From a phage: a stretch of DNA of 64,000 bases. A program made the translations under genes and the position numbers. Below are positions 26,869-45,561 of this stretch, piece by piece. The stretch's first letter is position 1. Each line of letters starts with the position of its first letter. The stretch lies in assembly GCA_029742005.1 (NCBI GenBank), contig GCA_029742005.1_4113.1; one strand, 5' to 3'. The notes beneath the pieces are model-generated. The model was not told where the DNA came from, made no database searches, and saw only the letters and a program-made list of their open reading frames with translations.

Positions 26869-27506
26869 TTAAACACAAGTAGACAGGGGAAGCTCCTAGT
26901 GAACAACCTTTATGTACAGGCGAATTGTTAAAATTCAGCCTGGACAAATGCGATCACTAGGATTCTCCCCAGGCTAAACCCCGTAATCATAGGTAGTCAT
27001 AAGTAATCATATATAAACATTTATATGAGCACCGTAGAATCACAGAATGATTATATATGATTCAGTACTGATTAGTATAGACAAGATTGCTCAAGAATGC
27101 ACGGAAATGTGTGTGAATGATTCAGTACTGATATCCCACTAAGTAGGCAGAGGAAGTCTGCCGTACTTTTTAGTTTCCAAGCTCCTTTTCCATTTTTCAA
27201 ATTACATCAAATGTAATCAAAAGTAATCACGCAATGATTAGTACTGAATTATTACTTTCACCTTAATTTCAATGACCCCTTTACCCTTCGGGGTAAAATT
27301 CCATTACCCCTTGAGGCTCCAGCAAAAAGTTGGTTAGTACTCCATCCTAAATCTCGATCCTAAAAATTTTGGAGTACCTATGAAATAAAAGTTGGATCTT
27401 CGAAAGTTGAAATTTACGTTGGGACGTTTATGATTTGTGGGATATAATGATGTTTGTAGTCGGGTAGTTCTCAAGAATATCAGTACTGAATAATGAAAGA
27501 AAGCTA

Positions 27507-27534
27507 TTGACATTATGATTCAGTACTGTATAAT
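27507..27534 (+). promoter_or_regulatory. promoter TTGACA-16-TATAAT in non-coding region
   Basis: Consensus hexamers; no protein ORF downstream. Confidence 0.5.
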
Positions 27535-27540
27535 GTTCTA

Positions 27541-27655
27541 CATAGCTTCAAGGGGTGATGAGTTGCTGCGAACAATTCATTTACTCTACCTCCTGTCGTG
27601 AGACAGTACAGAAAAGATAGTTCCTCCTGTGGTGGTACATCTTTTTGAACCTCAT
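27541..27655 (+). ncRNA. candidate small non-coding transcript
   Basis: Promoter upstream, no credible ORF, T-run near 27650. Confidence 0.25.
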
Positions 27656-27726
27656 ATGAAAATCGTAATAACAGTACTGATATTAACAGAATGGTGTCAG
27701 TACTGATTTTAATCTAAAGCATTATG

Positions 27727-27746
27727 CCACCAGCACAAGCTGGTGG
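27727..27746 (+). repeat. inverted Chi octamers forming hairpin CCACCAGC-ACAA-GCTGGTGG
   Basis: Perfect 8-bp inverted repeat whose arms are the E. coli Chi octamer and its complement. Confidence 0.6.
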
Positions 27747-27889
27747 ATTCCCTCTAACAGTATTCAGTACTACATGATAGTCTTCATCCTCCTAGGGTAA
27801 CATAGTGAGGGCTATGATGGCAGTACTGAATACTCCCTTTCAAAAGATAGATCTATGGTATAGTACTGACGGATTTTGGGCGTAGTTAC

Positions 27890-28060
27890 CCTGGATGGAT
27901 TTTGGACGTAGATATGTCTAGCCCTCCAGAAGTCTGGAAGTAAAGATGGCTATCCATCTAGACGGCTAAACGGCTAGATTTCTGGATGGCTGGATGGCTA
28001 GACGTTTGGACGGCTAAACGGCTAGATGGTTACACGTCTGGAAGTATAGACGGCTAAATC
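27890..28060. repeat. iteron-like direct repeat cluster
   Basis: GACGGCTAAACGGCTAGAT at 27961 and 28009, partial at 28049; TCTGGAAGTA twice; palindrome AGATGGCTATCCATCT. Confidence 0.6.
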
Positions 28061-28816
28061 AAAATTTTATTTTGTTTTTTCCAATAGTTCCCCTACCGCG
28101 TGGGGATAGTTTCCCCGCAGTATCTGGAGTTAGATTTTTCTGAATCTGGAATCATTATCTTATAAACTGGGGGCAATGTCAACCGCCTGGACGGATATTT
28201 TTAAAAATTTTTTCAGTACTGAATTTTGGGCGTAACTATGCACCCGGTGGGCTATAGTCTTTCTCGACTTGATGGAACTATTATACAGTACTGAAAAAAT
28301 AAAGCAATACCCTGGAAGCAAAAAAGTTTTAATTAATTTGCTTGCCATCCTGGGCCGTACTATGGTACTATATTTCAGTACTGAGAAAGTGCGTTTACCT
28401 GCTAGGGTGCGGGAGTGTATCCTTTTTTTATATCTTGAATTTTGGGCGTAATTCCGCACCCTCTGGGGTTTCCGCTTTCTCGCGTCTATGTAGTAATTAT
28501 ACGCTTTTTCAGGATCAAGTCAATACCTAAAAACAAAATAATTGAAAATAATTTAACGCGTTTAAACGGCCCGTAACGCCCTGGAATGATTGGAATGGTG
28601 CAAATGTATAGCTTAGGTGTATTAATGCGTTAGAATGCGTCTGAGGCCGTTTTACGGGGTATGGGGATGATTTAGTGGATTGATTCAGTACTGAATGATA
28701 GTACTACTATATAGAAAGATAGTTCCCCTGGATGGTTGCAGTACTGAATGATAGTACTGAATAATAGTTCCCCTATATAGAAAGAAAACTATTTTAAAAG
28801 TATTTGTAGAAAGTAC

Positions 28817-28844
28817 TTGCAAACTATGTTTAACGGCGTATAAT
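28817..28844 (+). promoter_or_regulatory. promoter TTGCAA-16-TATAAT followed by 5' stem-loop at 28856-28877
   Basis: First PeSL-like unit of the 28.8-45.3 kb region. Confidence 0.6.
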
Positions 28845-28899
28845 GTTTTACATCGAGAGCGGGAACACTTCCCGCTACACTTTAAGAGAGATTAATACG

Positions 28900-29262
28900 A
28901 TGGCGACTCAAATCACTAAAATCATGCTTAACCTGGTAAACTTCCGCGATGAGATGAAAGGTCTTCCGGCTGAAACTGTAAAAATTCACATTGCAGCTTA
29001 TCGGGAACTTATTGCAATGTTGCCGCTTAAGCGTGAACAATACGCCGCTACTTTGATGCTTGATTCAATGATCCATATAATGATCTCAAATGATTTAACG
29101 ATGGTTTATCAGTATATGGGTGAATTGTTCGCGGTGTATAGTAAACCAGTACCAGGAATGGAAAGTACAGAAGTATTACACGGTTTAAATTTAAAACAAG
29201 ATGCATGGGATAATATGCCTCGTTTCCTGGTATGGGCTGACAGTGGCAAGATTTACGAATAA
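28900..29262 (+). CDS. hypothetical protein
   Basis: ATG after RBS and hairpin; track start 28843 lies in the promoter. Confidence 0.55.
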   Translation: MATQITKIMLNLVNFRDEMKGLPAETVKIHIAAYRELIAMLPLKREQYAATLMLDSMIHIMISNDLTMVYQYMGELFAVYSKPVPGMESTEVLHGLNLKQDAWDNMPRFLVWADSGKIYE

Positions 29263-29276
29263 GTTTTAGAAAGTAC

Positions 29277-29304
29277 TTGCAAACTAAGTTTAAAAGCGTA
29301 TAAT
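29277..29304 (+). promoter_or_regulatory. promoter TTGCAA-16-TATAAT followed by stem-loop GTGGGGAATAGTTCCCCAC
   Basis: Same architecture as 28817. Confidence 0.6.
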
Positions 29305-29355
29305 GTTTTACATCAGGTGGGGAATAGTTCCCCACTATATAAGAGGATTAAAAAA

Positions 29356-29595
29356 ATGGCTAAATCAAAAATGTTCTTGGGTCACAAAAACAAAACTCAT
29401 TGGAATGTAAGCCTTTGGATTAATAACGATGAGTCATTGTACCGGTTGGCCCAGGACTTTATTGCCGCCAATACTAATCGCAATGATGCGGCCCGTCATA
29501 TGATGTTATTTTTAGAACAGACTGGACAATATAAAACACCGGACGGATTCAAATATAGCACTACTGCGATCCGTGCGGCGATGGTTGGAATGTAA
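29356..29595 (+). CDS. hypothetical protein
   Basis: RBS AAGAGGA; MAKSKMF.. Confidence 0.55.
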   Translation: MAKSKMFLGHKNKTHWNVSLWINNDESLYRLAQDFIAANTNRNDAARHMMLFLEQTGQYKTPDGFKYSTTAIRAAMVGM

Positions 29596-29609
29596 TAGAA
29601 TTTATTTAA

Positions 29610-29643
29610 AGTACTATCGCAAAAAATGATAGTACTTTATAAT
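29610..29643 (+). promoter_or_regulatory. promoter with operator-like inverted repeat AGTACTATC-N9-GATAGTACT before TATAAT
   Basis: Perfect 9-bp arms; -10 at 29638-29643; weak -35. Confidence 0.45.
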
Positions 29644-29680
29644 AGTGTTTTATTCATACACCAACGATAAGGGCAACAGC

Positions 29681-29947
29681 ATGAATATTAAGTATTTTGC
29701 GACGCGTGAACAAGCTCGGATCGCCGCACGCCAGGACGGGGCAACGTTTAAAGATATGGGCGTACAATCGGAACGTGGTAAACGTTGGGCCATTATAAAG
29801 CGTAGTACCGCCAGATCATTACAGTACTGGCTATCTGCTTTAAAGCGTCCTGATAGTGTATCGCGTCGCGTGGTAGAAATAAAGCACGACCGCAAGGGCA
29901 ACCGCGTTACTGTGTACAGTACTAAAAAGATAGCAGTACTTGAATAA
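29681..29947 (+). CDS. hypothetical protein, KYFATREQAR family
   Basis: Paralog of 40678-41073 (shared ..FATREQARI.AR..G.TFKDMG.. and ..HDRKGNRVTVYS..). Confidence 0.55.
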   Translation: MNIKYFATREQARIAARQDGATFKDMGVQSERGKRWAIIKRSTARSLQYWLSALKRPDSVSRRVVEIKHDRKGNRVTVYSTKKIAVLE

Positions 29948-30131
29948 AAGTACTTGCATACTATGTTTAAAGGCGTATAATGTTTTACATCAGGACGGGG
30001 AACGAAATAAGTAACTTCCCGTTAAGTAGCCCAGGAGTAAGGCACACGAAAAACTCCCCTGATAAAATAGTTTGACAAATGTTTTTAAAAGCGTATAATA
30101 CTTACATCAACTACTGAATGAGGGTTACAAA
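29946..30131 (+). repeat. dual-promoter repeat unit, copy 1
   Basis: Near-identical to 39417-39601; promoters at 29954-29981 and 30072-30099. Confidence 0.6.
29988..30070 (+). ncRNA. candidate small RNA between tandem promoters
   Basis: Hairpin ACGGGGAA..CTTCCCCGT; no ATG-initiated ORF; conserved in second copy. Confidence 0.3.
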
Positions 30132-30743
30132 ATGAAAACTATCACTACTACTACTTTCGTTATGGCTTTTTCTGAATTGAACGCAGAACAACAAACGTCA
30201 GCTATCGAACTGGTTCGGGATCGGGAACGTTCAAGCGGTGATGATTTCTTTTCTGAGTCAGTGATCGAGTACTATAAAGAAACAGTACTACCAGAATATG
30301 GAATTGATGACGCTGATTTGCAATTCAGTGGTTTTTGGTCGCAGGGTGACGGTGCATCAATCAGTACTGACCACGTTGACGCAGTGAAGTTTTTACGCAA
30401 GATTAAAGCATTAACTAAGTATCGTTCTATCCGTCACCTGCTGAATGAAGATGATTTGGCGATGAGTGTAAAGCGTTCTCACTCCCACTACTCGCATGAA
30501 AACACTGTAAGCGGGTACATTGAATCGGGGTACACTGATTTAACCGCAAAACAAGAAACGTTAGTTAATGAGCTTGAGGAACTACTCACTGAAACTATTC
30601 GTGAATTATCCCGCAAGTTGTACCGTGATTTAGAGAATGCATATGAGGATCAATTCACTACTGAAAACATTACGGCACTGATTGAGGGTAACGAATATCA
30701 ATTCAATGTTATTGATGGCGTAGTAGAATCTATCGAATATTAA
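30132..30743 (+). CDS. hypothetical protein
   Basis: 203 aa after promoter 30072-30099. Confidence 0.6.
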   Translation: MKTITTTTFVMAFSELNAEQQTSAIELVRDRERSSGDDFFSESVIEYYKETVLPEYGIDDADLQFSGFWSQGDGASISTDHVDAVKFLRKIKALTKYRSIRHLLNEDDLAMSVKRSHSHYSHENTVSGYIESGYTDLTAKQETLVNELEELLTETIRELSRKLYRDLENAYEDQFTTENITALIEGNEYQFNVIDGVVESIEY

Positions 30744-30799
30744 TTCAGTACTGAATCAATGGCGGGAGTGGTTCCCGCCTATAACCAGGAGTAAGCATC

Positions 30800-31033
30800 A
30801 TGTTCGAACAAATTCAAACGACCACAAGCCGGAGCGGAACGAAAGTACATTACATCGCTGATACTGATAAAGGTGTACCCTATTGTGCTGTACACGTAAA
30901 TACTGACGGTGACTATTGGTTAACTGTATACGGGCGTTACTCGTTTGCTTTTAGTGCACATTGTAAGATCCTGGAAGTAGTGAAGCCTACCGGTAAGAAT
31001 ATCACGCCGGGAAAATGTTTTACTAAGCACTAA
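30800..31033 (+). CDS. hypothetical protein, family with 31955-32191
   Basis: RBS AGGAG; shares GVPYCAVHVNT..YW.TVYG.YSF and ..PTGKNIT. Confidence 0.55.
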   Translation: MFEQIQTTTSRSGTKVHYIADTDKGVPYCAVHVNTDGDYWLTVYGRYSFAFSAHCKILEVVKPTGKNITPGKCFTKH

Positions 31034-31119
31034 AAAGTACTTGCATACTAAGTTTAAAAGCGTATAATACTTTATATCGAGGCGGGGGAATGGTTCCCGC
31101 CTTTACTGAGGATTATCTA

Positions 31120-31407
31120 ATGAGCAAAGTAATTAACTATACAGTACTAAGCAAGTCATTATCTATTAGCCAGTGCACCGATGGTTTTTGGCTGTACGAT
31201 GAAACGCGTGGCATGAATTTAGCTATGCGGGAGAAAACTGCTGAGGCGGCGTATTTACAAGCCCTGGAATACTACCAGGAACGTTTAAAGGAAGTAGAAA
31301 ACAATTATCAAAATTTAAAAGAGAAAGTAGATAATTTCGTTGGTCAATTCGTTGACGATGACGAGGAAGACGGGCACTACTGCAACCGTTGCGGATCTTA
31401 CAATTAA
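31120..31407 (+). CDS. hypothetical protein with C-terminal CxxC
   Basis: Promoter + hairpin GGCGGGGGAATGGTTCCCGCC upstream; RBS GAGGA. Confidence 0.55.
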   Translation: MSKVINYTVLSKSLSISQCTDGFWLYDETRGMNLAMREKTAEAAYLQALEYYQERLKEVENNYQNLKEKVDNFVGQFVDDDEEDGHYCNRCGSYN

Positions 31408-31489
31408 GTACTTGCAATTAGTTTTCAGTACTGTATAATGGTTTACATCAAAGGGAGAAATGGTTCTCCCTGGTAATGAGGAAAATAAA

Positions 31490-31711
31490 ATGGCTAATAT
31501 CACTACTCTTTCCCAACTGGAAGCACTGGTTAAATCTATGCGGGAACATGCCGACAAAATCGGCGTACAAGATCCAGCCGTTTGCTTTTGCGACGAATTG
31601 AATGATGATACCCTGGTAATAGCAGAAGTCCAGGACGTTTCTAACTATTCCTCGCGTTACACTGGCGGCGTAGCAAATAAAGGTGACTTCTGTTTATACC
31701 TTACAAAATAA
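31490..31711 (+). CDS. hypothetical protein
   Basis: Promoter + hairpin GGGAGAAATGGTTCTCCC upstream; RBS GAGGAA. Confidence 0.55.
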   Translation: MANITTLSQLEALVKSMREHADKIGVQDPAVCFCDELNDDTLVIAEVQDVSNYSSRYTGGVANKGDFCLYLTK

Positions 31712-31714
31712 CAA

Positions 31715-31747
31715 CGCGGGGAGATAATAACTCCCCGTTACTTTTTC
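31715..31747 (+). terminator. rho-independent terminator
   Basis: CGCGGGGAG..CTCCCCGT hairpin + TTACTTTTTC. Confidence 0.6.
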
Positions 31748-31954
31748 AGTACTGAATCATTTAATAGACGGATCTATGCACCCGGTGGGTTAGTGACTGT
31801 TTCGTCTTGATGTAGTAATTATGCCAGTACTGGATGCACTTGTCAACAATTATTTTTCAAATACTTTTTATTAAAATACTTGCAATTAGTTTTTAAACGC
31901 GTATAATGTTTTGCATAGGGGGAGCGGTTCCCCTGGTAACTAAGGAATAATAAA

Positions 31955-32191
31955 ATGCTTGAACAAATCAAATCAACGTCTTCGAATGTAACGGGAACGG
32001 TAGCACACTTTACTAGTGATGAATCGCGGGGCGTTCCCTATTGTGCTGTACATGTAAACACTGAGGGTAACTACTGGTTTACGGTTTACGGTTCATATTC
32101 ATTTGGACGGCCAGGGCATCAAAAAATTCTGGATAAAGTACAGCCAACGGGTAAAAATATCACTGCTGAAATGTTTTATAAAAAATCATAA
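31955..32191 (+). CDS. hypothetical protein, paralog of 30800-31033
   Basis: Promoter + hairpin upstream; RBS TAAGGAA. Confidence 0.55.
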   Translation: MLEQIKSTSSNVTGTVAHFTSDESRGVPYCAVHVNTEGNYWFTVYGSYSFGRPGHQKILDKVQPTGKNITAEMFYKKS

Positions 32192-32275
32192 AGTACTTGC
32201 AATTAGTTTTTAGTACTGTATAATATTTTACATCGCAAGGGGGAGCGGTTCCCCCTGGTAACTAAGGATAATCAA

Positions 32276-32575
32276 ATGAAAATTGCAATCATCGCCCTGG
32301 CTTTATCTGTTTCCTCTTTCGCTGTTAATGCGTCATTAGATGTAAGTAGTGAAAAATTCATTCAGTGCACTGTTGCAATGACCGATGAAAGTACTGGCGA
32401 GATTGTTTTAAAGGATTTAGAGATCCAGCCGGAAGCATTTAAAAACGGGCCGTTCCATGAAGAAGACGAAAAAGGTAGCACGACAATTTATTACGATGCA
32501 AGTACTAAACGCGGTTCGGTCACTGTTATGGATACTGAGAAAGTAACTCATACTGGCGTTATTAATTGCCGTTGA
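32276..32575 (+). CDS. secreted protein with signal peptide
   Basis: MKIAIIALALSVSSFAVNA; promoter + hairpin upstream. Confidence 0.6.
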   Translation: MKIAIIALALSVSSFAVNASLDVSSEKFIQCTVAMTDESTGEIVLKDLEIQPEAFKNGPFHEEDEKGSTTIYYDASTKRGSVTVMDTEKVTHTGVINCR

Positions 32576-32596
32576 TAGATACTACGGGGTAACATC

Positions 32597-32827
32597 ATGA
32601 CTAAGCGAATTGTTTTACTTAACGAAAGCAGTACTACACAACTACTTAACGCCGTGCATTATGATATTGAAACGAGCGTTAATCTTATCAGTACTGTCGT
32701 ACTGTTGGACACTGGAAAGGTCGCCAATGATAAAGCGATTGCAGGTATACTAACGGATCTTGAGCCTGGTAGCAGTGCACCAATAACGTTAAATGGTAAA
32801 GTGTTTAACATTTTACTTACTGATTAA
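32597..32827 (+). CDS. hypothetical protein
   Basis: 76-aa ORF, terminator immediately downstream. Confidence 0.5.
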   Translation: MTKRIVLLNESSTTQLLNAVHYDIETSVNLISTVVLLDTGKVANDKAIAGILTDLEPGSSAPITLNGKVFNILLTD

Positions 32828-32833
32828 GTACAT

Positions 32834-32856
32834 AGCCCACCCGGTGGGCTTTTTTG
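32834..32856 (+). terminator. rho-independent terminator AGCCCACC-CGGTGGGCT + T-run
   Basis: Perfect stem + TTTTTTG. Confidence 0.7.
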
Positions 32857-33059
32857 TTTTTGTAGTATCGTAGTACTGAGATACTTTGAAAATAGTTTTA
32901 AAAAATAGTTGACATTACCGCAGAAAAGCGTAGAATGTATTACATCAAGACGGGGAGCACTAAGTAGACCGCCAGTAAGTCGAACGAAAAACTGGACACG
33001 TCGAGAAAACTTTGATACACTAATAAACGTAAACTAAACTTTAATTGAGGATTTATAAA

Positions 33060-33542
33060 ATGGCTAATGTAAAATCATTCATCAAAGCACTGGTAGCAAA
33101 TGAAACTAACGTCGCGGCAGAGATCCTGGCTGATCTGGATAACGATACCATGAAAGCGGTACGCAATAATTTTAACATCGCTTATAGTACTGCGAAAGAA
33201 CTACAAGCAAATAAAGCGGCAGAAATTGAAGCGGCAAAGGCGGCCCGTGAAGCAGAACTACAAGCAACAATTGAAAGTATCCAGGCGGCAGTAGTTGGAT
33301 TGGATCTGGAAGTAGTTACAGAGATGGCACAAAAAGCCCTGGCGGTTAAGTATGGGGAAGATAAGCCGGAATCTAAGCCTAAAAAATGGATTCAAAAACG
33401 TGTAGCGGTAGTACTGGACAACGGGGAAGAATATCTGATTCCGGTGCGTGGTAACTGCATTGCGGTAGTACTGGATGCGATTAACTCCAGTGGTATGACT
33501 CGCGAGGAATGGATCGAAGCTCATCGCAAAGTGGAAGCATAA
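33060..33542 (+). CDS. hypothetical Ala-rich protein
   Basis: RBS GAGGA; long 5' UTR after promoter TTGACA..TAGAAT near 32909. Confidence 0.55.
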   Translation: MANVKSFIKALVANETNVAAEILADLDNDTMKAVRNNFNIAYSTAKELQANKAAEIEAAKAAREAELQATIESIQAAVVGLDLEVVTEMAQKALAVKYGEDKPESKPKKWIQKRVAVVLDNGEEYLIPVRGNCIAVVLDAINSSGMTREEWIEAHRKVEA

Positions 33543-33563
33543 CAATTAAAGTACTGAATCACT

Positions 33564-33590: not shown

Positions 33591-33609
33591 GTGTTTATCG
33601 TTTACCAGG

Positions 33610-38852: not shown

Positions 38853-38869
38853 TATAAGGAGTACAGCTT

Positions 38870-39132: not shown

Positions 39133-39278
39133 AAGAATTCTTATTCGAAGTAGTGTTCCAGGGCGTAGGAAGTAACCAACTGATTCGATCAAGTGGTTAC
39201 AATGTTAACCAGGCATGGAATAACATTAAACAAATGTACCCGAACGCTATCACCTATCGCAACCCAAAACAAGTTTAA
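39129..39278 (+). CDS. small hypothetical protein (49 aa)
   Basis: ATGA overlap; terminator-promoter follows. Confidence 0.4.
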   Translation: MKEFLFEVVFQGVGSNQLIRSSGYNVNQAWNNIKQMYPNAITYRNPKQV

Positions 39279-39292
39279 AAAGAATTGAAAAA

Positions 39293-39325
39293 GGGATTGA
39301 CTCCGGTCAGTCCCTTTGCTATTAT
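39293..39325 (+). terminator. terminator-promoter composite
   Basis: GGGATTGACTCCGGTCAGTCCC hairpin; TTGACT-17-TATTAT. Confidence 0.6.
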
Positions 39326-39416
39326 ATATTCATTGAAACAATCTAGCCCACAGGGTGCATAAATGTATCTATTGTTTGCTGGTGGCTAGTACTATCAAGT
39401 ACTGAAAACTATTTTT

Positions 39417-39601
39417 AAAAAGTACTTGCAAAGTATCACGATAAGCGTATAATGTTTTACATCAGGACGGGGAACGAAACAAGTAACTCCCCGTTAAGTA
39501 GTCCAGGAGTAAGACATACGAAAACCTCCCCTGATAAAATAGTTTGACAATAGAAATTAAACGAGTATAATACTTACATCAACCACAAAGAGGAATACAA
39601 A
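39417..39601 (+). repeat. dual-promoter repeat unit, copy 2
   Basis: Near-identical to 29946-30131. Confidence 0.6.
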
Positions 39602-39802
39602 ATGAAACATTTTACTTTCGGTGTAGTAGGCTTTACAGTATCCAGCGGCGTTTATAAATCAGAACGCGGTGCTAAAAATGCAGCAAGTCGGGCGTATGGT
39701 TCACAGCGTGACTTACAGGTCGGTTATATTAGTAACATTAATAACATGTTTATTCCTGTTTCACAGCGTAAAGCGGGTAACATGAAATGGGAAACAATTT
39801 GA
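39602..39802 (+). CDS. hypothetical protein
   Basis: RBS AAGAGGAA. Confidence 0.5.
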   Translation: MKHFTFGVVGFTVSSGVYKSERGAKNAASRAYGSQRDLQVGYISNINNMFIPVSQRKAGNMKWETI

Positions 39803-39891
39803 TAAAATAGTTTGACAATAGTTTTTAGTACTGTATAATAGTTTACATCAAGTGGGGAATAGTTCCCCACCTAACAAAGAGAGAAATTAAA

Positions 39892-40167
39892 ATGCGGATT
39901 CTACTGACAGCTAACGAAATCGAGCAAGTACTGACTACTAACCTGGAAGACTGGAAACGTGATGCAGATATCCAGGCGGTTCAATGCCTTAACGATAAGT
40001 TAACGCCAGATGACTTAAGCACGATTGTTGATCCACAATTTTATGAAGATATTCACGACATGGATTTAAGCGTAGAGGATGTACTTGATAAGCACTACAT
40101 TGATACTGATTTACAGGTTTACGGTCGTAAAAACTTTATCACTATTCACGACATTTACAATACTTAA
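39892..40167 (+). CDS. hypothetical acidic protein
   Basis: Promoter + hairpin GTGGGGAATAGTTCCCCAC upstream. Confidence 0.55.
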   Translation: MRILLTANEIEQVLTTNLEDWKRDADIQAVQCLNDKLTPDDLSTIVDPQFYEDIHDMDLSVEDVLDKHYIDTDLQVYGRKNFITIHDIYNT

Positions 40168-40254
40168 GTATTGACAAAGTATCTTAGTACTGTATAATAG
40201 TTTACATCAAGTGAGGGGAATGGTTCCCCTCCTAACAAAAAGAGAGAAATTAAA

Positions 40255-40578
40255 ATGGCTATGATCCTTACCCAGAAAGTAGAAATGAAAATTGTAACTT
40301 CCTTTGACATTAAAGTTAATCGGTGGACTGATAGCCACGGCAATACTTACCACTCATGCTACGTGTCTGCATTGATTGGTGACCGCTGGGAAGACCTGGG
40401 ACATGAAACCTTTACTTACGGTTACGGTACACAAGGCGAATACACGGGCTTGGAGATCATTAAAGAAACTGTAATAGGTTTCAACCCGAAAGAGAAAGTA
40501 CTACACAGAATTGAGGATGAGATCAACAAAGAAATTACAGTTCGTTACTACGATGTAAAACGTAAGAAAGACATGTAA
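40255..40578 (+). CDS. hypothetical protein, paralog of 34367-34711
   Basis: Promoter + hairpin upstream; C-terminus VKRKKDM. Confidence 0.55.
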   Translation: MAMILTQKVEMKIVTSFDIKVNRWTDSHGNTYHSCYVSALIGDRWEDLGHETFTYGYGTQGEYTGLEIIKETVIGFNPKEKVLHRIEDEINKEITVRYYDVKRKKDM

Positions 40579-40592
40579 TAGAATCCATTTAA

Positions 40593-40629
40593 AGTACTAT
40601 TTGACATTACCCAGATAGTACTTTATAAT
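40593..40629 (+). promoter_or_regulatory. promoter TTGACA-17-TATAAT bracketed by IR AGTACTAT/ATAGTACT
   Basis: -35 40601-40606; -10 40624-40629. Confidence 0.6.
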
Positions 40630-40677
40630 AGACTCTAACTTGTAGTACTAATTAACTTAACTAATAGGATGTACACC

Positions 40678-41073
40678 ATGATTACTAAATTCTTCGCTAC
40701 CCGTGAACAAGCTCGCATCGTTGCCCGTGAAGAAGGTGAAACATTTAAAGACATGGGCAAAGATGCACCGAAAGGACAACGCTGGGCGGTACAGTTCAAA
40801 GAGATCTCTGATATTGTGAATTCACCTGAACCAGTACTTACTGAAGCAGAACTAAAGCAAGCTCAAGAACTGGCTGAAGTACTGAACGCTCAAGATGACT
40901 TCTTGGAAGGTTCTGATATTCAAGTACAAGTGAATAGTAATGCATGGACTCACGCGGATCACCTGGCAAACCTTAAGCGTCCAAGTGAACTGATTCGTAA
41001 CCAGAAAGAGATCCGTCATGACCGTAAAGGAAACCGTGTAACAGTATACAGTAAACGCCGCCAGGTTATCTAA
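40678..41073 (+). CDS. hypothetical protein, KFFATREQAR family
   Basis: Paralog of 29681-29947. Confidence 0.55.
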   Translation: MITKFFATREQARIVAREEGETFKDMGKDAPKGQRWAVQFKEISDIVNSPEPVLTEAELKQAQELAEVLNAQDDFLEGSDIQVQVNSNAWTHADHLANLKRPSELIRNQKEIRHDRKGNRVTVYSKRRQVI

Positions 41074-41095
41074 TAACTTGCAGTACTAACAACAC

Positions 41096-41120
41096 GGCGG
41101 GTTCAGTTCCCGCCTTTTTT
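41096..41120 (+). terminator. rho-independent terminator
   Basis: GGCGGG-TTCAGTT-CCCGCC + TTTTTT. Confidence 0.7.
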
Positions 41121-41135
41121 ATAGGATAAACTAAA

Positions 41136-41390
41136 ATGATGAAGGTACAACTATCTAAAGATAATATCTTGCGGGTACACTATAAAGCACCACAGAGAAT
41201 CATCACAAAGGCCGTACAGCTTGCTAATGAGTTTATTAATGGTAGTCTATTACCCAGGAAGTTAAGCAACGGAAAACTACGTGTTATCGATGTAGACACT
41301 AACAATAGAATAGTAATTGAGAGTACTGGAAAAATTAATCTATATGAACACCAACAATACAATAAAAAAATAAAACTAATATCACGTTGA
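41136..41390 (+). CDS. hypothetical protein
   Basis: RBS TAGGATAAA. Confidence 0.5.
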   Translation: MMKVQLSKDNILRVHYKAPQRIITKAVQLANEFINGSLLPRKLSNGKLRVIDVDTNNRIVIESTGKINLYEHQQYNKKIKLISR

Positions 41391-41446
41391 CAGTACTCAA
41401 TTGTTTTAGTATTATGTATCTATACCAACACAGAGAGAGAAACAAA

Positions 41447-41665
41447 ATGAAATTATCTAAAATCGAAAAGAAAACTATTGATGAAGCAGTGAAGCACGGT
41501 TATACCTTTCGTAATGATTCACATTTTACCAATTTTCAACAAGGGTATCGTACTATTAAAAAACTAATTGACAAAGGTTTATTAGTTGAAGTCAATAACG
41601 GCAATGGCATTGAGTATCAACCAACACAAGACGCATTATCACTAAAGAAATATTCTATTATCTAA
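41447..41665 (+). CDS. hypothetical protein
   Basis: Promoter TTGACAGTACTCAATTGTTTTAG-TATTAT upstream. Confidence 0.5.
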   Translation: MKLSKIEKKTIDEAVKHGYTFRNDSHFTNFQQGYRTIKKLIDKGLLVEVNNGNGIEYQPTQDALSLKKYSII

Positions 41666-41722
41666 TTGACAGTACTCAAATGTTTTAGTACTATGTACGC
41701 ATACCAACACGGGGAAAACAAA

Positions 41723-41950
41723 ATGATTACTTTAGAAAAACGTATCAAAGAGACTACAACGCTGGTGGAACTGTTAACCGTTCTTAAATGCCGGGTAACT
41801 CCATTCAGTACACCGGACTTTATCAACATGGTGGACGTTAACGGTCGATATCGTATTGCGGTCGAACAAGGTACGGCAAAAGTATTCAGTACTAAAAATA
41901 CGCGTGAAGTATTCCACGCAGTTCAAGTAAAAAAAAGTAGTTGCCATTGA
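41723..41950 (+). CDS. hypothetical protein
   Basis: Near-identical duplicated promoter upstream. Confidence 0.5.
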   Translation: MITLEKRIKETTTLVELLTVLKCRVTPFSTPDFINMVDVNGRYRIAVEQGTAKVFSTKNTREVFHAVQVKKSSCH

Positions 41951-41997
41951 TAGTAAAGTACTGTAATATAGTTTCATTAACTCAAGGAGTCAACACA

Positions 41998-42582
41998 ATG
42001 CGTAACTATACTAAATTCATCCGTTCACTTCATGCAATGGAAACCAACAAAGAGATCCTTTCAGCTTGTCGGTTAGCTGGACTGGAGATCGTCGGTGCGG
42101 GTTCTTCCCGTATTGTATTCGCTTTAAATGATCGGTTAGTGATTAAGGTCGCGAATTGTGATGCGGGTGTAGAACAAAATGAAACTGAATGTAAGGTATG
42201 GAATTTTTTAGATTATGACCGTCCGCACCTTAAACAGTTCTTTGCCAAGGTGCATATGCATTTATGCGATCCTGATAATCTGTTTATTGTTATGGATCGT
42301 TTGAGTACTGCAAGCAAAGGCAGTGTAAAGCATGTAAACGCGTGCAATGAGTTAAAGTACAATATTAAACGTAATACGGTAGAACGCCAACACCATTTCG
42401 CTGATGCTCTCAATCACGTTGATGATACATTATCCACACTAACGATAAGAGATATCAGAAAACAGAATATCGGCCAGGATCGCAACGGCTTGATTAAAGT
42501 ACTTGATTACGGTTTAACCCGCAATATCTGGAATCAGTACTATAAAAAACGTGATGTTAACGCGATAACTATAACACGATAA
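41998..42582 (+). CDS. protein kinase-like protein
   Basis: GAGSSRIVF (Gly loop), VIKVA (Lys), IRDIRKQN (catalytic loop), KVLDYG (DFG-like); RBS AAGGAG. Confidence 0.5.
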   Translation: MRNYTKFIRSLHAMETNKEILSACRLAGLEIVGAGSSRIVFALNDRLVIKVANCDAGVEQNETECKVWNFLDYDRPHLKQFFAKVHMHLCDPDNLFIVMDRLSTASKGSVKHVNACNELKYNIKRNTVERQHHFADALNHVDDTLSTLTIRDIRKQNIGQDRNGLIKVLDYGLTRNIWNQYYKKRDVNAITITR

Positions 42583-42596
42583 AAAAGATTAAAAAA

Positions 42597-42629
42597 GGGA
42601 TTGACTCCAGTCAGTCCCTTTGCTATTAT
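42597..42629 (+). terminator. terminator-promoter composite
   Basis: GGGATTGACTCCAGTCAGTCCC hairpin; TTGACT-17-TATTAT. Confidence 0.6.
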
Positions 42630-42803
42630 ATATTCATTGAGAGATAACTCACTGACCCATAGGGTGCGGAAGTGTATCTATTATATAAGTATTCAGTACT
42701 GAAAACTATTTGATAAAAAGTACTTGCAAACTATCTCAAAGAGCGTATAATGTTTTATATCGAGAGGGGGAAATGGTTTCCCCTCAAGTCCAGGAGATAC
42801 ACC

Positions 42804-43067
42804 ATGAACACTATCGAAATCACTATCAATGCACACGTATACGACAACGTAGTACTGCAAACTACTATGACCGCTAACGATACCAGTACTTTGCGGAATA
42901 CTGTTATTAGTGCTGTATGTGCCGCTATCGGTGATGTCGCCCTGGAAAATGCAAAACACGTAAACGATGGTTTCACTATGTGCAAACGTGATAACGCAAA
43001 ACATATCATCGTAGAAGGTTACGGCGGTGTAGAATATAATGTTTATATGAAAAAAGTACTTGCATAG
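42804..43067 (+). CDS. hypothetical protein
   Basis: Promoter + hairpin GAGAGGGGGAAATGGTTTCCCCTC upstream. Confidence 0.55.
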   Translation: MNTIEITINAHVYDNVVLQTTMTANDTSTLRNTVISAVCAAIGDVALENAKHVNDGFTMCKRDNAKHIIVEGYGGVEYNVYMKKVLA

Positions 43068-43134
43068 TACTGAATAAAGCGTATAATGTTTTGCATAGGG
43101 GGAGATATCCTCCCCCACTAAAAGGAGTATTAAA

Positions 43135-43359
43135 ATGGCTAACTTTGATGAACTGATGCGGGAAGTAGCTAACCTGGCAGAAGAGAAGAAATCATTCGAT
43201 TCTATCTATAACACCGCTCACCGTGATTCAGTACTGGCATGTAACCAGGATCAAAAAGATGAACTAATCGCCACATATCATGAAGCATGGAAGTACTACC
43301 GACAATGGGAGAAAGAAGAAAGCGAGTCTACCATCGAAGGTATCAATAATCTAATCTAA
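43135..43359 (+). CDS. hypothetical protein
   Basis: Promoter + hairpin upstream; RBS AAGGAG. Confidence 0.55.
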   Translation: MANFDELMREVANLAEEKKSFDSIYNTAHRDSVLACNQDQKDELIATYHEAWKYYRQWEKEESESTIEGINNLI

Positions 43360-43370
43360 AAGTTTTATTT

Positions 43371-43407
43371 CAGTACTATTGACATAGCTTGATAGTACTG
43401 ATATGAT
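43371..43407 (+). promoter_or_regulatory. promoter TTGACA-17-TATGAT bracketed by IR CAGTACTAT/ATAGTACTG
   Basis: -35 43379-43384; -10 43402-43407. Confidence 0.55.
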
Positions 43408-43434
43408 AACTTTACTAACTAAAGGGGAAACATA

Positions 43435-43692
43435 ATGGAACAGTTCACACAATATCGGGTAAATCCTCAAGCGATGGCCTACGTAGAAGACCATAAAACG
43501 TTACCAGTACTGCAACCAGTTAAAGGCCATATCTATCGTGCAATGTCGTGGAGTGCGGCCCAGGATGGATATAAAACCGTCGCCGTGGGGATGTATTGCG
43601 GGAATGGTGAATGGTTTGATCCTAACAATCCGATTGCACTTGACAGTACTGAAAAAATGAAATGGGCCGACTACATCGAAGATATTTCATAA
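43435..43692 (+). CDS. hypothetical protein
   Basis: RBS AAAGGGGAAA. Confidence 0.55.
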   Translation: MEQFTQYRVNPQAMAYVEDHKTLPVLQPVKGHIYRAMSWSAAQDGYKTVAVGMYCGNGEWFDPNNPIALDSTEKMKWADYIEDIS

Positions 43693-43782
43693 AAACTATT
43701 TGACAGTACTAACCAGTAATGTATAATGTTTTACATAGAGCGGGGGAATAGTTCTCCCGCCAATAGTTTGGAGTAAAACATT

Positions 43783-43983
43783 ATGTCTATCGCTATCGCC
43801 CTGGTTGAAGTACTGAAAGAAGCTAAAGCCAACCTTATCGATGTACAGATTAAGGAATTGCAAAACGGCTTAATCGGCTGTACTTGTACCGCTGGTGGAG
43901 CGGCAGACTATCGAGAACACGAATCACTCGAATCACTGGTTCGGTATCTTACCATGATCGTTGATGATTGGAGAATCATCTAA
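43783..43983 (+). CDS. hypothetical protein
   Basis: Promoter + hairpin GCGGGGGAATAGTTCTCCCGC upstream. Confidence 0.55.
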   Translation: MSIAIALVEVLKEAKANLIDVQIKELQNGLIGCTCTAGGAADYREHESLESLVRYLTMIVDDWRII

Positions 43984-44000
43984 CAAAAAAGAATAAAAAA

Positions 44001-44033
44001 GGGATTGACTCCGGTCAGTCCCTTTGCTATTAT
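44001..44033 (+). terminator. terminator-promoter composite
   Basis: GGGATTGACTCCGGTCAGTCCC hairpin; TTGACT-17-TATTAT. Confidence 0.6.
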
Positions 44034-44228
44034 ATACGCATAGACAAAAACTAGCCCACTGGGTGCATAAGTGTATCCAAAATATATAGTTAATAACGGT
44101 GAGTAACTATCTGCTGGTGGAGTGAAAACTATTAATAAAAAAAGTATTGACAAAGTATATCAGTACTGCGATAATGTATCTCGTAGGGCGGCAATGGTGC
44201 GACGGCCCACAAAGTTAGGAGATTCAAA

Positions 44229-44561
44229 ATGACTACTTCAATCGCTATCGTTAAAGCTTTCATCCGTACTAATGTTTCCTCTGTATTCATCGACGGCCTC
44301 GACCGTAACGTAGAATACTCAATCATTATCGCACAAACGGCAAACGGTTCTCGGTACATCCTGAATGATAGTGAAGCAAATCACTACTACTTCACTAAAG
44401 CCACTGGCTTTAAACGCATCGATGCTGATGTAGTATACGCTAAGATGAATAAGCTGGTAGATAAGATTAACGCTAAAGGTACTATAGATTTACAGTACTG
44501 GACCGAAACCGATCCAGAATATGGATCTCACCGCTACCTGAATCCAGGTATTAAAATGTAA
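44229..44561 (+). CDS. hypothetical protein
   Basis: RBS TAGGAGA. Confidence 0.55.
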   Translation: MTTSIAIVKAFIRTNVSSVFIDGLDRNVEYSIIIAQTANGSRYILNDSEANHYYFTKATGFKRIDADVVYAKMNKLVDKINAKGTIDLQYWTETDPEYGSHRYLNPGIKM

Positions 44562-44650
44562 AAAGTACTTGCATAGTACTTAGATTCATGTATAATGTTT
44601 TACATAGAGAGGGGGAAATGGTTCTCCCTCCTAAATTAAGGAGTTTTATC

Positions 44651-45052
44651 ATGACCTTCTCAATCACTTCCTTCGCTGACGTTTTAGTACTGGCTCGGAC
44701 TTTTGGTAAAGATGCACTGGAGTACGCTGTAAGTAATGGCACTATCCAACCGGAACAGTGCCGCATCATTGGAAACTGCAAACGTTGGGCGGTATCCAAT
44801 ACTATTGCACTGGAAAACTTCAACGATGGCAACAATGAATATTCTGTTGATGCAGTATTCGAAGCCGTAGACCTGGGCGGTATCTATAACACTAACCTGA
44901 ATGATGTGCGTATCGTTCGCACTGGCTTCGGTGCTTATGATGTATCTATCCGTGAAGCTATGGACAAGGGATACATTAGCAAGGACCAGTTAGCTTACAT
45001 CATGCAGCAAACTAAGGAGCGTAACGAAGCCCGTACTATCTTAGGGTTGTAA
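44651..45052 (+). CDS. hypothetical protein
   Basis: Promoter + hairpin GAGAGGGGGAAATGGTTCTCCCTC upstream; RBS AAGGAG. Confidence 0.55.
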   Translation: MTFSITSFADVLVLARTFGKDALEYAVSNGTIQPEQCRIIGNCKRWAVSNTIALENFNDGNNEYSVDAVFEAVDLGGIYNTNLNDVRIVRTGFGAYDVSIREAMDKGYISKDQLAYIMQQTKERNEARTILGL

Positions 45053-45120
45053 GCGTTACACATCACCAAACATCATAGGCCGCCTTGTAGCGGCCTTAAC
45101 TATATCAGGAGTACATACAC

Positions 45121-45330
45121 ATGATCTATACAGTATATAGCGTTCTAGGTACTATTGCAGGCGTACACGATAACGTCGATAGTGCTATGCGTACAGTACT
45201 GCAACAGGTTCCACTAAAGCCTAAGACCATTAAGCAGATGACAGCACGATTAACCAGGGCGACGGCTGGCGTGGAAGTATGGCAGGACTATGGGGATACA
45301 CAGATAATCGTAAGCGTAACGAAGGATTAA
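45121..45330 (+). CDS. hypothetical protein
   Basis: RBS TCAGGAG. Confidence 0.5.
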   Translation: MIYTVYSVLGTIAGVHDNVDSAMRTVLQQVPLKPKTIKQMTARLTRATAGVEVWQDYGDTQIIVSVTKD

Positions 45331-45561
45331 TGCGTAAAAGGATTTAGTACTGAATCAAAAAAAAGTCAAGGCATTTTTTTCATGCGTCGAAAAAAAACTT
45401 AACCAGTACACTATCACGCATGAAATAATTTTGACCAGTGATTATATCTCTTGCCCTAAAGGGCGGGTAATGTCTTAGCGAGCATATTGGAGTTCTTGGG
45501 TAGGACAAAATTATTTCTTGTGCTATAATTATATCGAATGTAATCATAGAAAGGAGTCCCT

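What the first reader, a model, noticed from the sequence alone, without database searches (positions are those of the whole stretch)
26880..45400. Strong over-representation of the palindrome (C)AGTACT(G)
AGTACT (the ScaI site) appears dozens of times, concentrated in intergenic DNA: about 16 copies in the 2 kb non-coding region, in most promoter spacers as ..AGTACTG-TATAAT, in terminator stems such as GCCAGTAC..GTACTGGC, and as paired inverted copies around -35 elements. Enrichment of one palindrome across regulatory positions suggests recognition by a single DNA-binding factor, or a connection to DNA modification.
Basis: seen in the sequence. Interest (0 to 1): 0.5.

Follow-up and report, generated by a model that had tools for sequence, protein, structure and literature searches.

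The report
Genome-wide AGTACT palindrome in jumbo phages
The six-base palindrome AGTACT is the commonest six-letter word in this giant E. coli virus and its relatives (about ten times chance), sits at two fixed places in their early promoters and is kept by selection, which suggests an unidentified DNA-reading factor.

Summary
AGTACT occurs 269 times in the window (about 20 expected) and 122 times in the flagged interval (5.5 expected). It is the most frequent hexamer in the window and in a whole 352-kb relative (919 vs 101). The window is an Asteriusvirus-type jumbo coliphage. The flagged interval matches the roughly 21-kb direct terminal repeat, which holds the early genes. Most copies lie inside ORFs, enriched in all three frames, and 53% of Ser-Thr pairs are written AGT-ACT. 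Copies are retained better than flanking hexamers (84.5% vs 68%). The enrichment (8-10x) is shared by RaK2, CBB and GAP32, whose DNA is unrelated, but not by PA5oct, T4 or E. coli. In the terminal repeats of both this phage and CBB the motif sits at two promoter registers (about -40 and -19). The best reading is a binding site for an unidentified dimeric DNA-binding factor; no protein was identified. Modification is unsupported and SlmA mimicry fails. Side discovery: one "motif-free" island is an 8-kb block of about 18 genes with almost no ACT on the sense strand, where AGTACA replaces AGTACT. A conserved RelE/YoeB-like putative RNase lies in the repeat.

The parts
1..64000 (.). Whole window: 269 copies of AGTACT. 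The extended preference is C at -1 (45%) and G at +1 (48%), with G at -1 and C at +1 disfavoured. CAGTACTG occurs 61 times.
27142..45480 (+). Equivalent of the direct terminal repeat, i.e. the early-gene region. Boundaries were transferred from fEgEco12, whose termini were confirmed experimentally. It holds 120 copies (6.5/kb): 12.5/kb in intergenic DNA and 4.3/kb in ORFs.
26880..28842 (.). Non-coding leader spanning the inferred genome terminus (27142), with 19 copies. Many read (A)TTCAGTACTGAA(T), e.g. 28212-28223 and 28684-28695.
31407..31439 (+). Example of a two-site early promoter: AGTACT fused to the -35 hexamer (AGTAC-TTGCAA, copy at 31407) and AGTACT abutting the -10 hexamer (AGTACTG-TATAAT, copy at 31427). 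The same architecture occurs at 32192-32224 and 35815-35847.
34298..34333 (+). Second promoter class: AGTACT-A-TTGACA ... AGTACT-GG-CATAAT, with copies at about -42 and -20. Repeated at 37152-37187 and 43372-43407.
37942..37973 (+). Third promoter class: the motif overlaps the 3' end of -35 (TTGAC-AGTACT) and overlaps the -10 (TAT-AGTACT).
22810..27141 (+). Array of small ORFs just before the terminal repeat, with 37 copies (8.5/kb).
11204..22803 (-). Ten tandem ORFs, each about 240-400 aa. The nine that were aligned are only 21-27% identical to the first in protein sequence, and the one scanned has an RCC1-like domain. The block carries about 3 AGTACT per kb. Hairpins CCAGTAC..GTACTGG lie in four of the spacers between these genes.
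45481..50828 (+). Island 1: about 19 tightly packed ORFs of 43-91 aa. It has 0 AGTACT (1.3 expected) and no GTAC enrichment (12 vs 11.9), so the motif pressure is absent here.
50829..52330 (+). Dense patch between the two islands: 12 copies in 1.5 kb.
52323..60192 (+). Island 2, a zone almost free of ACT on the sense strand. There is one ACT in 7.87 kb, against 199 AGT, across about 18 ORFs all on the + strand.
60263..64000 (+). The motif resumes inside genes: 24 copies, 6.4/kb.

Best explanation
AGTACT, with optimum (T)TCAGTACTGA(A), is the recognition site of a sequence-specific, probably dimeric, double-strand DNA-binding factor. The enterobacterial RaK2-like jumbo phages (Asteriusvirus, Alcyoneusvirus, Mimasvirus) have accumulated this site by selection at roughly 900 places per genome. 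In the terminal repeats, which carry the sigma70-driven early genes, copies sit immediately upstream of or fused to the -35 hexamer and immediately upstream of the -10 hexamer. That is two helical turns apart on one face of the DNA, so occupancy would clamp the promoter and most likely shut early transcription off. The copies inside genes would be further binding sites that mark or coat phage DNA, which carries about 40-120 times more sites per kb than the sampled host DNA. What is shown: the enrichment, the symmetry, the above-background retention of sites, the spread across the clade and the fixed promoter registers. What is inferred: that a protein binds the site, that it is phage-encoded, and that it represses.
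For: Enrichment is 13-fold in the window and 9-fold in a whole relative, where AGTACT is the top hexamer. In ORFs of 100 aa or more there are 630 copies against 183 +/- 12 after synonymous-codon shuffling, and all three frames are enriched. 53% of Ser-Thr dipeptides are encoded as AGT-ACT against 16% expected. Copies are retained in 84.5% of cases against 68% for flanking hexamers (z = 6.8), in both coding and non-coding DNA. One-mismatch neighbours are mildly enriched rather than depleted. Flank preferences are symmetric and are also seen in coding copies and in other genera: C at -1 in 30-46% of half-sites, G at -1 in 6-8%. TTCAGTACTGAA occurs 5 times against 0.02 expected. The same 8-10-fold enrichment is found in RaK2, CBB, GAP32 and a Salmonella Asteriusvirus, but not in PA5oct, T4 or E. 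coli. In the orthologous tail sheath gene some copies are shared across genera and others were created by amino-acid replacements. Promoter registers are about -39/-42 and -19/-20 in 24 of 36 window promoters and about -40 and -19 in 27 of 40 CBB terminal-repeat promoters, against 1 of 13 and 2 of 31 outside the repeats. Inside the ACT-free zone only the nearest allowed variant, AGTACA, is enriched (12-fold) and retained, so the pressure tolerates a change at the outermost base pair, as protein binding would.
Against: No binding protein was identified. The larger and the cross-genus conserved early proteins show no DNA-binding family. About 84% of copies are inside genes and spread almost evenly along them, which is unusual for a regulator. 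A 6-8-bp core is short for a specific operator. The promoter copies belong to promoter families that arose by duplication, so they are not independent counts. A host factor shared by Enterobacterales fits the PA5oct contrast equally well. The retention advantage per site is moderate: the loss rate is roughly halved.
Confidence: 0.42

Rival explanations
1. A host protein common to Enterobacterales, not a phage protein, reads the motif, and the phages have accumulated sites to recruit or titrate it. The nearest known candidate is the nucleoid-occlusion factor SlmA, whose site GTGAGTACTCAC has the same core.
For: The enrichment is present in phages of Escherichia, Salmonella, Klebsiella, Cronobacter and Pectobacterium but absent, and even depleted (1 vs 7.8), in the Pseudomonas relative PA5oct. 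The SlmA site shares the AGTACT core (PMC3020112).
Against: SlmA needs G1, T2, a purine at position 3, A4 and G5. The whole 352-kb relative has 0 fully SBS-compatible sites and only about 1% compatible half-sites. G at -1 is the least-used flank in every genus. T4, an AT-rich phage of the same host, shows no enrichment, so there is no general host-driven pressure. I know of no other enterobacterial protein with this site (own knowledge).
Confidence: 0.12
2. The functional unit is the asymmetric word (C)AGTAC, read on single-stranded DNA or by a translocating enzyme such as a primase recognition site or a Chi-like signal for a helicase-nuclease. The palindrome is then simply the most economical way to place the word on both strands.
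For: Spacing in the bulk genome is more even than random: the coefficient of variation of gaps is 0.87 and the longest gap is 2.1 kb against about 2.9 kb expected. In the ACT-free zone the half CAGTAC stays 15-fold enriched on one strand only. Density rises towards the genome ends. The terminal repeats also carry genuine, oriented E. coli Chi sites, so end protection is evidently under selection.
Against: Outside the zone the asymmetric variants are only 1.2-2.1-fold enriched while the full palindrome is 9-fold. The polarity in the zone is explained by the ACT ban and need not reflect any requirement for polarity. The fixed promoter registers and the symmetric flanks fit double-strand binding better.
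Confidence: 0.15
3. AGTACT is the target of a DNA modification or of a restriction-like system (the ScaI site), and its abundance is tied to that enzyme, as proposed for the cyanobacterial HIP1 palindrome and its methyltransferases.
For: It is a perfect 6-bp type II-like palindrome. The phages do encode two DNA methyltransferases. From my own knowledge, HIP1 offers a precedent for a link between an iterated palindrome and methylases.
Against: The C5 enzyme is a 286-aa Dnmt3-like protein with a minimal target-recognition region, and RaK2 DNA is reported to be CpG-methylated. The other enzyme is a 173-aa phage Dam-family protein. Flank preferences beyond the 6 bp and the tolerance of AGTACA are not typical of type II recognition. 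A restriction target would be avoided, not enriched. fEgEco12 DNA cuts as predicted with ten enzymes, but ScaI was not among them.
Confidence: 0.1
4. The motif has no function of its own and results from a mutational, repair or gene-conversion bias that keeps creating AGTACT.
For: The abundance is comparable to that of iterated palindromes whose function has stayed unknown (own knowledge). Copies occur in every frame and in every gene class.
Against: Near-cognate words are not depleted, as a conversion drive would predict. A polarised three-genome comparison shows no excess of gains (6 observed vs about 10.6 neutral) and few losses (19 vs about 95, though that expectation is crude). Island 1 has sat in this lineage without acquiring any copies. 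Positions are fixed relative to promoters in two genera. In the ACT-free zone only one specific substitute is enriched, rather than a spectrum of broken sites.
Confidence: 0.06

Closest known systems
HIP1, the highly iterated palindrome GCGATCGC of cyanobacteria (own knowledge)
   Same: It is a short perfect palindrome that is the most over-represented word genome-wide, at about one copy per few hundred to a thousand bases. It occurs inside genes in all frames as well as between them, and is kept across related genomes. Its function is unresolved.
   Different: The sequence is different, and the carrier is a virulent phage clade, not its host: the E. coli sample is at background. Here the motif also has fixed positions in early promoters and a 3-fold density peak in the terminal repeats. 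No cognate methyltransferase is evident.
SlmA-binding sequence (SBS) GTGAGTACTCAC of E. coli (PMC3020112)
   Same: It has an identical central AGTACT within a 12-bp palindrome read by a dimeric TetR-type protein, and occurs at many chromosomal sites outside promoters.
   Different: The flanks that SlmA requires (G1, T2, purine at position 3) are not used. The phage prefers T, T, C, and there are 0 compatible sites in 352 kb. E. coli has about 50 SBS, against about 900 phage sites.
Multi-site phage repressor systems: stoperators of mycobacteriophage L5, and the C1 operators of P1 (own knowledge)
   Same: One short sequence is repeated many times across a phage genome, at promoters and within transcription units, and read by one phage protein to silence transcription.
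   Different: Those systems have tens of sites that are asymmetric, mostly intergenic and belong to temperate phages. Here there are hundreds of palindromic sites, mostly inside genes, in a virulent jumbo phage, and no protein is known.
DNA uptake sequences (USS/DUS) and Chi (own knowledge)
   Same: They are short words enriched about 1 per kb or less often across coding and non-coding DNA. They serve as a mark of self DNA and sometimes occur as inverted pairs forming terminator hairpins.
   Different: Those words are asymmetric and are read by uptake or RecBCD machinery. AGTACT is palindromic. Genuine Chi sites are present separately in the terminal repeat.
MazF-type mRNA interferases and ACA-less transcripts (for the side finding; PMC10864209 and own knowledge)
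   Same: A three-base word is completely excluded from the sense strand of a set of genes regardless of reading frame. This is how an mRNA escapes a sequence-specific endoribonuclease.
   Different: The excluded word is ACU, while ACA is abundant (241 copies). I know of no RNase specific for ACU alone. The only RNase candidate found here has a RelE/YoeB-type fold, and that family is usually ribosome-dependent and codon-specific.

Membership tests
Highly iterated palindrome (HIP1-like phenomenon) | A short perfect palindrome is the most over-represented word of the whole genome | tested here: met
   It is the top hexamer in the window (269 vs about 20) and in a 352-kb relative (919 vs 101).
Highly iterated palindrome (HIP1-like phenomenon) | Present inside genes in all reading frames as well as between genes | tested here: met
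   Frame counts are 330/113/187 against 108/30/45 after synonymous shuffling.
Highly iterated palindrome (HIP1-like phenomenon) | Copies retained between related genomes beyond background | tested here: met
   Retention is 84.5% against 68% for flanking hexamers. Positions are shared across genera in the tail sheath gene.
Highly iterated palindrome (HIP1-like phenomenon) | Association with a methyltransferase that targets the palindrome or its core | tested here: inconclusive
   Two methyltransferases are present, but their predicted types (Dam family; CpG-type C5) do not match AGTACT. No methylome data are available.
SlmA-binding sequence | 12-bp palindrome with G1, T2, purine at position 3, A4, G5 (GTRAGYRCTYAC) | tested here: not met
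   There are 0 full matches in 352 kb or in the window, and 19 of 1838 half-sites are compatible. The requirement is taken from PMC3020112.
Operator of a dimeric repressor | Two-fold symmetric site with symmetric flank preferences | tested here: met
   The consensus is TTCAGTACTGAA. The C/G preference at -1/+1 also holds in coding copies and in other genera.
Operator of a dimeric repressor | Fixed position overlapping the core promoter elements | tested here: met
   The registers are about -40 and -19/-20 in the window and in CBB terminal-repeat promoters.
Operator of a dimeric repressor | A cognate DNA-binding protein encoded nearby or elsewhere in the genome | tested here: inconclusive
   No DNA-binding family was found among 20 early proteins scanned, including 10 of the 11 conserved with CBB. 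The rest of the genome was not scanned.
Operator of a dimeric repressor | Demonstrated binding and repression | not testable with these tools
   This needs EMSA or pull-down and promoter-reporter assays.
Type II restriction-modification target (ScaI-type) | The site is avoided, or protected by a cognate methylase | tested here: not met
   The site is enriched 9-13-fold, not avoided, and no matching methylase was identified. By contrast, 24 GC-rich palindromic hexamers are absent from the window.
Polar motif (Chi/KOPS-like) | Strand-asymmetric word with an orientation bias over large domains | tested here: not met
   The enriched word is a palindrome. The asymmetric variants are balanced outside EC22 50-85 kb (sense 168 vs antisense 120). 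The one strongly polar stretch is explained by the ACT ban.
Endoribonuclease-immune transcript (ACA-less/MazF logic; side finding) | Frame-independent exclusion of one short word from the sense strand of a transcription unit | tested here: met
   The window has one ACT in 7.87 kb. EC22 has 0 ACT in 8,213 nt, although ACT occurs about once per 52 nt genome-wide. ACA, ACC and ACG are at normal levels.
Endoribonuclease-immune transcript (ACA-less/MazF logic; side finding) | A cognate RNase of matching specificity | tested here: inconclusive
   [not shown]

The most novel reading that the evidence does not exclude
Enterobacterial RaK2-like jumbo phages run a genome-marking system. An undiscovered clade-specific protein reads about 900 AGTACT sites per genome to tell phage DNA from host DNA and to clamp the early promoters in the terminal repeats. 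Alongside this, Asteriusviruses keep an 8-kb block of about 18 genes free of ACU, so that its transcripts survive a sequence-specific RNase, possibly the conserved RelE/YoeB-like early protein, which degrades other mRNAs. That would be a natural version of the engineered 'single-protein production' trick.
Probability: 0.2. Interest if true: 0.85.

Novelty: new variant of a known kind. Interest (0 to 1): 0.66.

Why it matters
If a protein reads this motif, it would be a master regulator, or a self-marker, for a whole clade of 350-kb phages in which more than 80% of genes are uncharacterised. It would also give a direct handle on how their early programme is switched off. The motif is a cheap diagnostic signature for this clade in metagenomes. 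It is also a practical point for anyone mapping these genomes: ScaI should cut them into hundreds of pieces, and if it does not, the DNA is modified. The ACT-free gene block is, as far as I can tell, an unreported natural case of complete trinucleotide exclusion from a multi-gene transcript. It makes the hypothesis of a phage- or host-encoded ACU-specific RNase directly testable.

Tried and rejected
1. SlmA mimicry. The core is the same, but the flanks SlmA requires are absent (0 compatible sites), so it was rejected at the sequence level.
2. Islands as recently imported foreign DNA. Rejected, because both islands match only Asteriusvirus-type records (34 and 36 records, no other genera).
3. 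Opposite polarity of a half-motif in island 1 (9 TGTACT vs 1 AGTACA). Downgraded, because 5 of the 7 in-ORF copies fall in one reading frame and encode x-Val-Leu in small ORFs that look paralogous, and GTAC is not enriched there.
4. Extended -10 (TGn) explanation for AGTACTG-TATAAT. The TG sits directly against TATAAT and is therefore out of register. Only the CATAAT class fits TGn.
5. Neutral gain/loss expectations from a three-genome comparison. The loss expectation (95 vs 19 observed) is inflated by mosaic divergence, so I rely on the local-flank control instead.
6. My first codon-model gene caller was biased by the tandem paralogs. It was replaced by greedy longest-ORF calls and by fEgEco12 annotation.
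7. A search of viral contigs with a protein from the ACT-free zone returned only one near-identical locus, so it gave no information on breadth.
8. Pfam and PHROGs scans of 10 zone proteins and 20 early proteins found no DNA-binding candidate.
9. Literature searches for AGTACT with phage, jumbo or over-representation terms, and for ScaI with RaK2, found no prior description.

Full report
**What the window is.** The flagged region matches Asteriusvirus-type jumbo coliphages (PBECO4, 121Q, G17, phAPEC6, fEgEco12 and others, 348-386 kb) at about 90-95% identity. fEgEco12 has 20,993-bp direct terminal repeats, confirmed by PhageTerm and restriction digests (PMC13070987). Its position 1 aligns to window 27142, and the end of its repeat aligns to about window 45,480. 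It holds about 47 small ORFs (fEgEco12 annotates 56 genes in its repeat), most preceded by a sigma70-like promoter. These boundaries are transferred by homology and were not measured for this genome.

**Where the copies lie.** About 72% of copies in the window and 84% genome-wide lie fully inside ORFs, although intergenic density is higher: 12.5 vs 4.3 per kb in the repeat, and 4.3 vs 2.4 per kb genome-wide. In confident ORFs (100 aa or more) there are 630 copies, against 183 +/- 12 after shuffling synonymous codons and 113 +/- 10 after shuffling codon order. All three frames are enriched 3-4-fold. More than half of all Ser-Thr dipeptides (330 of 626) are written AGT-ACT, against 16% expected from codon usage. 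Copies are spread almost evenly along genes, with only about a 2-fold excess just after stop codons and about 50 nt upstream of starts. This is therefore a DNA-level signal laid over the coding sequence, not simply an intergenic element.

**Selection or mutation bias?** Against EC22.5-2, 84.5% of aligned copies are intact, compared with 68% of hexamers in the 30 nt on either side (z = 6.8). The result is similar in coding and non-coding DNA and against fEgEco12. One-mismatch neighbours are 1.2-2.1-fold enriched rather than depleted, which argues against a repair-type conversion drive. A polarised three-genome comparison shows no excess of gains. In the bulk genome the spacing is somewhat more even than random: the coefficient of variation of the gaps is 0.87, and the longest gap is 2.1 kb against about 2.9 kb expected. 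The tandem RCC1-like paralogs aligned here are only 21-27% identical to the first in protein sequence, yet the block carries about 3 copies per kb.

**Phylogenetic spread.** The same palindrome is the top outlier, at 8-10 times expectation, in several other phages:
- RaK2 (Alcyoneusvirus, Klebsiella): 119 vs 12.0
- CBB (Mimasvirus, Pectobacterium): 65 vs 7.8
- GAP32 (Mimasvirus, Cronobacter): 64 vs 7.2
- a Salmonella Asteriusvirus: 59 vs 7.1 (all)

The flank rule is the same in the three genera checked: C or A at -1, and G disfavoured at 6-8%. The enrichment is absent from the more distant Pseudomonas relative PA5oct (1 vs 7.8), from T4 (4 vs 5.7) and from an E. coli K-12 sample (3 in 50 kb). 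In the orthologous tail sheath gene (66-73% amino-acid identity between genera) the enriched phages have 6-9 copies, PA5oct has 0 and T4 has 1. One position is shared by all four enriched phages and two more by three of them. Other copies were created by lineage-specific amino-acid changes to Ser-Thr. Ser-Thr is written AGT-ACT in 4-8 of 8-10 cases in the enriched phages, against 0 of 7 in PA5oct and in T4. The trait is therefore old, clade-specific and actively maintained.

**Promoter architecture.** Reading the spacers and using the consensus scanner, 24 of 36 strong +-strand sigma70-like sites in the repeat carry the motif between -47 and -4, against 24% of random 46-nt windows. The copies fall in three registers:
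- about -39/-42, fused to or just upstream of -35: 14 copies
- about -30, overlapping the 3' end of -35: 4 copies
- -19/-20, abutting -10: 13 copies

Nine promoters hold two copies, mostly 20-22 bp apart. In the annotated 22.5-kb terminal repeat of CBB, whose DNA cannot be aligned to the window, motif density is again 6-7.6 per kb. There, 27 of 40 promoter-like sites carry the motif at the same registers (-39 to -41 in 18 cases, -19 in 13), and many carry both. Outside the repeats the figures are 1 of 13 (CBB 22.5-50 kb) and 2 of 31 (RaK2 1-50 kb). In the non-coding leader many copies read (A)TTCAGTACTGAA(T), and the 12-mer occurs 5 times against 0.02 expected. This is the arrangement expected of an operator for a dimeric protein binding twice on one face of the promoter. 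One caveat is that these promoters form families that arose by duplication.

**What it is not.**
- SlmA site: the E. coli SlmA site GTGAGTACTCAC has the same core, but SlmA needs G1, T2 and a purine at position 3 (PMC3020112). The relative genome has no compatible site.
- Known methylation target: the two phage methyltransferases are a 173-aa Dam-family enzyme and a 286-aa Dnmt3-like C5 enzyme. RaK2 DNA is reported to be CpG-methylated (PMC3622015). Neither fits AGTACT, but nobody appears to have tried ScaI or methylome sequencing.
- Previously described: I found no paper describing the enrichment.

**The two islands.** The only long AGTACT-free stretches, in the window and in the whole relative, are 45.35-50.83 kb and 52.32-60.26 kb. 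Both are long-term residents of this lineage, because they match only Asteriusvirus-type records.

Island 1 (about 19 tightly packed small ORFs) shows no enrichment of the motif or of its GTAC core.

Island 2 is different. It has only 5 ACT in 7,932 nt on the sense strand, against 199 AGT, 241 ACA, 50 ACC and 59 ACG, and it has no TACT. The ACT-poor stretch runs from 52323 to 60192 with a single ACT at 52858. In EC22.5-2 there are 8,213 consecutive nucleotides without ACT, in a genome where ACT occurs about once per 52 nt. The next-longest run free of any trinucleotide is 3,975 nt, for the much rarer GGC. fEgEco12 has 4 ACT in 8.5 kb. All of the roughly 18 ORFs in the zone are on the + strand and the exclusion ignores reading frame, so AGTACT is absent simply because ACT is banned.

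The pressure for the motif persists inside the zone. AGTACA occurs 44 times (12 times expectation), split evenly over the three frames (13/14/11 of the 38 copies inside ORFs). It is retained at 80% against 66% for other hexamers, while every other ACT-less neighbour of AGTACT sits at background. This tells us two things:
- The outermost base pair of the site can be swapped, T for A, at some cost.
- A second, strand-specific constraint operates on this block.

The simplest reading of the second constraint is that this transcript must avoid ACU, as ACA-less mRNAs avoid MazF. MazF/PemK enzymes that cut U^ACU are known in enterobacteria (PMC10864209), but I know of no RNase specific for ACU alone. 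No such zone was seen in CBB 1-50 kb or in the pieces of RaK2, GAP32, PA5oct and T4 that I held. The zone's proteins have no recognisable family.

**Conclusion.** AGTACT is a highly iterated palindrome of the enterobacterial RaK2-like jumbo phages. It is maintained by selection genome-wide, is densest in the terminal repeats, and sits at two fixed registers of the early promoters. The most likely mechanism is binding by an unidentified dimeric DNA-binding factor. I think that factor is more likely phage-encoded than host-encoded. It would act as an operator at early promoters and as a genome-wide mark elsewhere. I put this at about 0.4, because no protein was found and most copies are inside genes. 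The rivals cannot be excluded without experiments: a host factor, a single-strand or translocating enzyme that reads (C)AGTAC, a modification target, or a neutral drive.

Noticed in passing
window 52323-60192 (+ strand); also EC22.5-2 58328-66539 (L002) and fEgEco12 29022-37500 (L009): An 8-kb block of about 18 genes is almost devoid of the trinucleotide ACT on the sense strand: one ACT in 7.87 kb in the window and none in 8,213 nt in EC22.5-2, against one per about 52 nt genome-wide. ACA, ACC and ACG are at normal levels, and the ban ignores reading frame. It looks like a transcript built to escape an ACU-specific endoribonuclease.
   Followed up: yes
[not shown]
   Followed up: partly
window 27739, 33672, 37397, 38110, 39378, 41761, 43891, 44113 (+ strand); CBB L018 9311-21020: Genuine E. 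coli Chi sites (GCTGGTGG) occur 8 times in one orientation inside the terminal repeat, against 0.26 expected for the whole window. CBB's repeat has 7 forward and 2 reverse. As oriented, they would protect against RecBCD entering from the right genome end. At 27727/27739 and 33610/33672 Chi lies close to its reverse complement.
   Followed up: partly
window 45481-50828: Island 1 holds about 19 tightly packed, overlapping ORFs of 43-91 aa directly after the terminal repeat. They have no internal promoters and no AGTACT or GTAC enrichment. The region matches itself 3-5 times per relative genome, so it appears to be a paralogous small-gene array.
   Followed up: partly
window 11204-22803 (- strand): Ten tandem ORFs of about 240-400 aa. 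The nine aligned are only 21-27% identical to the first, and all share the N-terminus MLPFxRMxxYGN. The one scanned (11204-12391) has an RCC1-like beta-propeller domain (E = 2.5e-16, below the curated cut-off).
   Followed up: partly
window 22810-26900 (+ strand): An array of about 190-250-nt units, each apparently a small ORF starting M-x-K-E-(Y/F)-Y and preceded by ...ttatattcaggtactaat. It lies at the right end of the unique genome just before the repeat and has 8.5 AGTACT per kb.
   Followed up: no
window 36283-36318, 39290-39325, 42594-42629, 43998-44033: Four copies of a module in which the -35 hexamer TTGACT sits inside a 12-bp hairpin (AAAGGGATTGACTCCGGTCAGTCCCTTT) followed by GCTATTATAT. 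These promoter-like sites carry no AGTACT.
   Followed up: no
window 27957-28056: A short degenerate tandem array (units of 16-48 bp, GGCTAAACGGCTAGA-like) lies about 800 bp inside the inferred left genome end. It may be related to packaging or replication.
   Followed up: no
whole window: 24 of the 64 palindromic hexamers, all GC-rich (e.g. GGATCC, CTGCAG, GTCGAC, CCATGG), are completely absent, and several others are strongly depleted (TCTAGA 2 vs 14.5; AAGCTT 5 vs 16). This is the opposite behaviour to AGTACT and is consistent with restriction avoidance.
   Followed up: no
PA5oct L014 (MK797984 100001-125000): In the Pseudomonas relative, AGTACT is depleted (1 vs 7.8 expected) rather than merely not enriched. 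CTGCAG is its top palindrome (9 vs 2.1).
   Followed up: no
EC22.5-2 55-85 kb (L002), corresponding roughly to window 50-64 kb and beyond: AGTACA on the + strand outnumbers its complement TGTACT by 89 to 14 across a 30-kb domain that extends well beyond the ACT-free block. Elsewhere the sense/antisense ratio is 168:120.
   Followed up: partly
window 37678-37935 and 41941-42582: The early region also encodes a DksA/TraR-type zinc-finger protein (E = 8e-11), a likely RNA polymerase secondary-channel binder, and a weak protein-kinase-like ORF (E about 1e-3).
   Followed up: no
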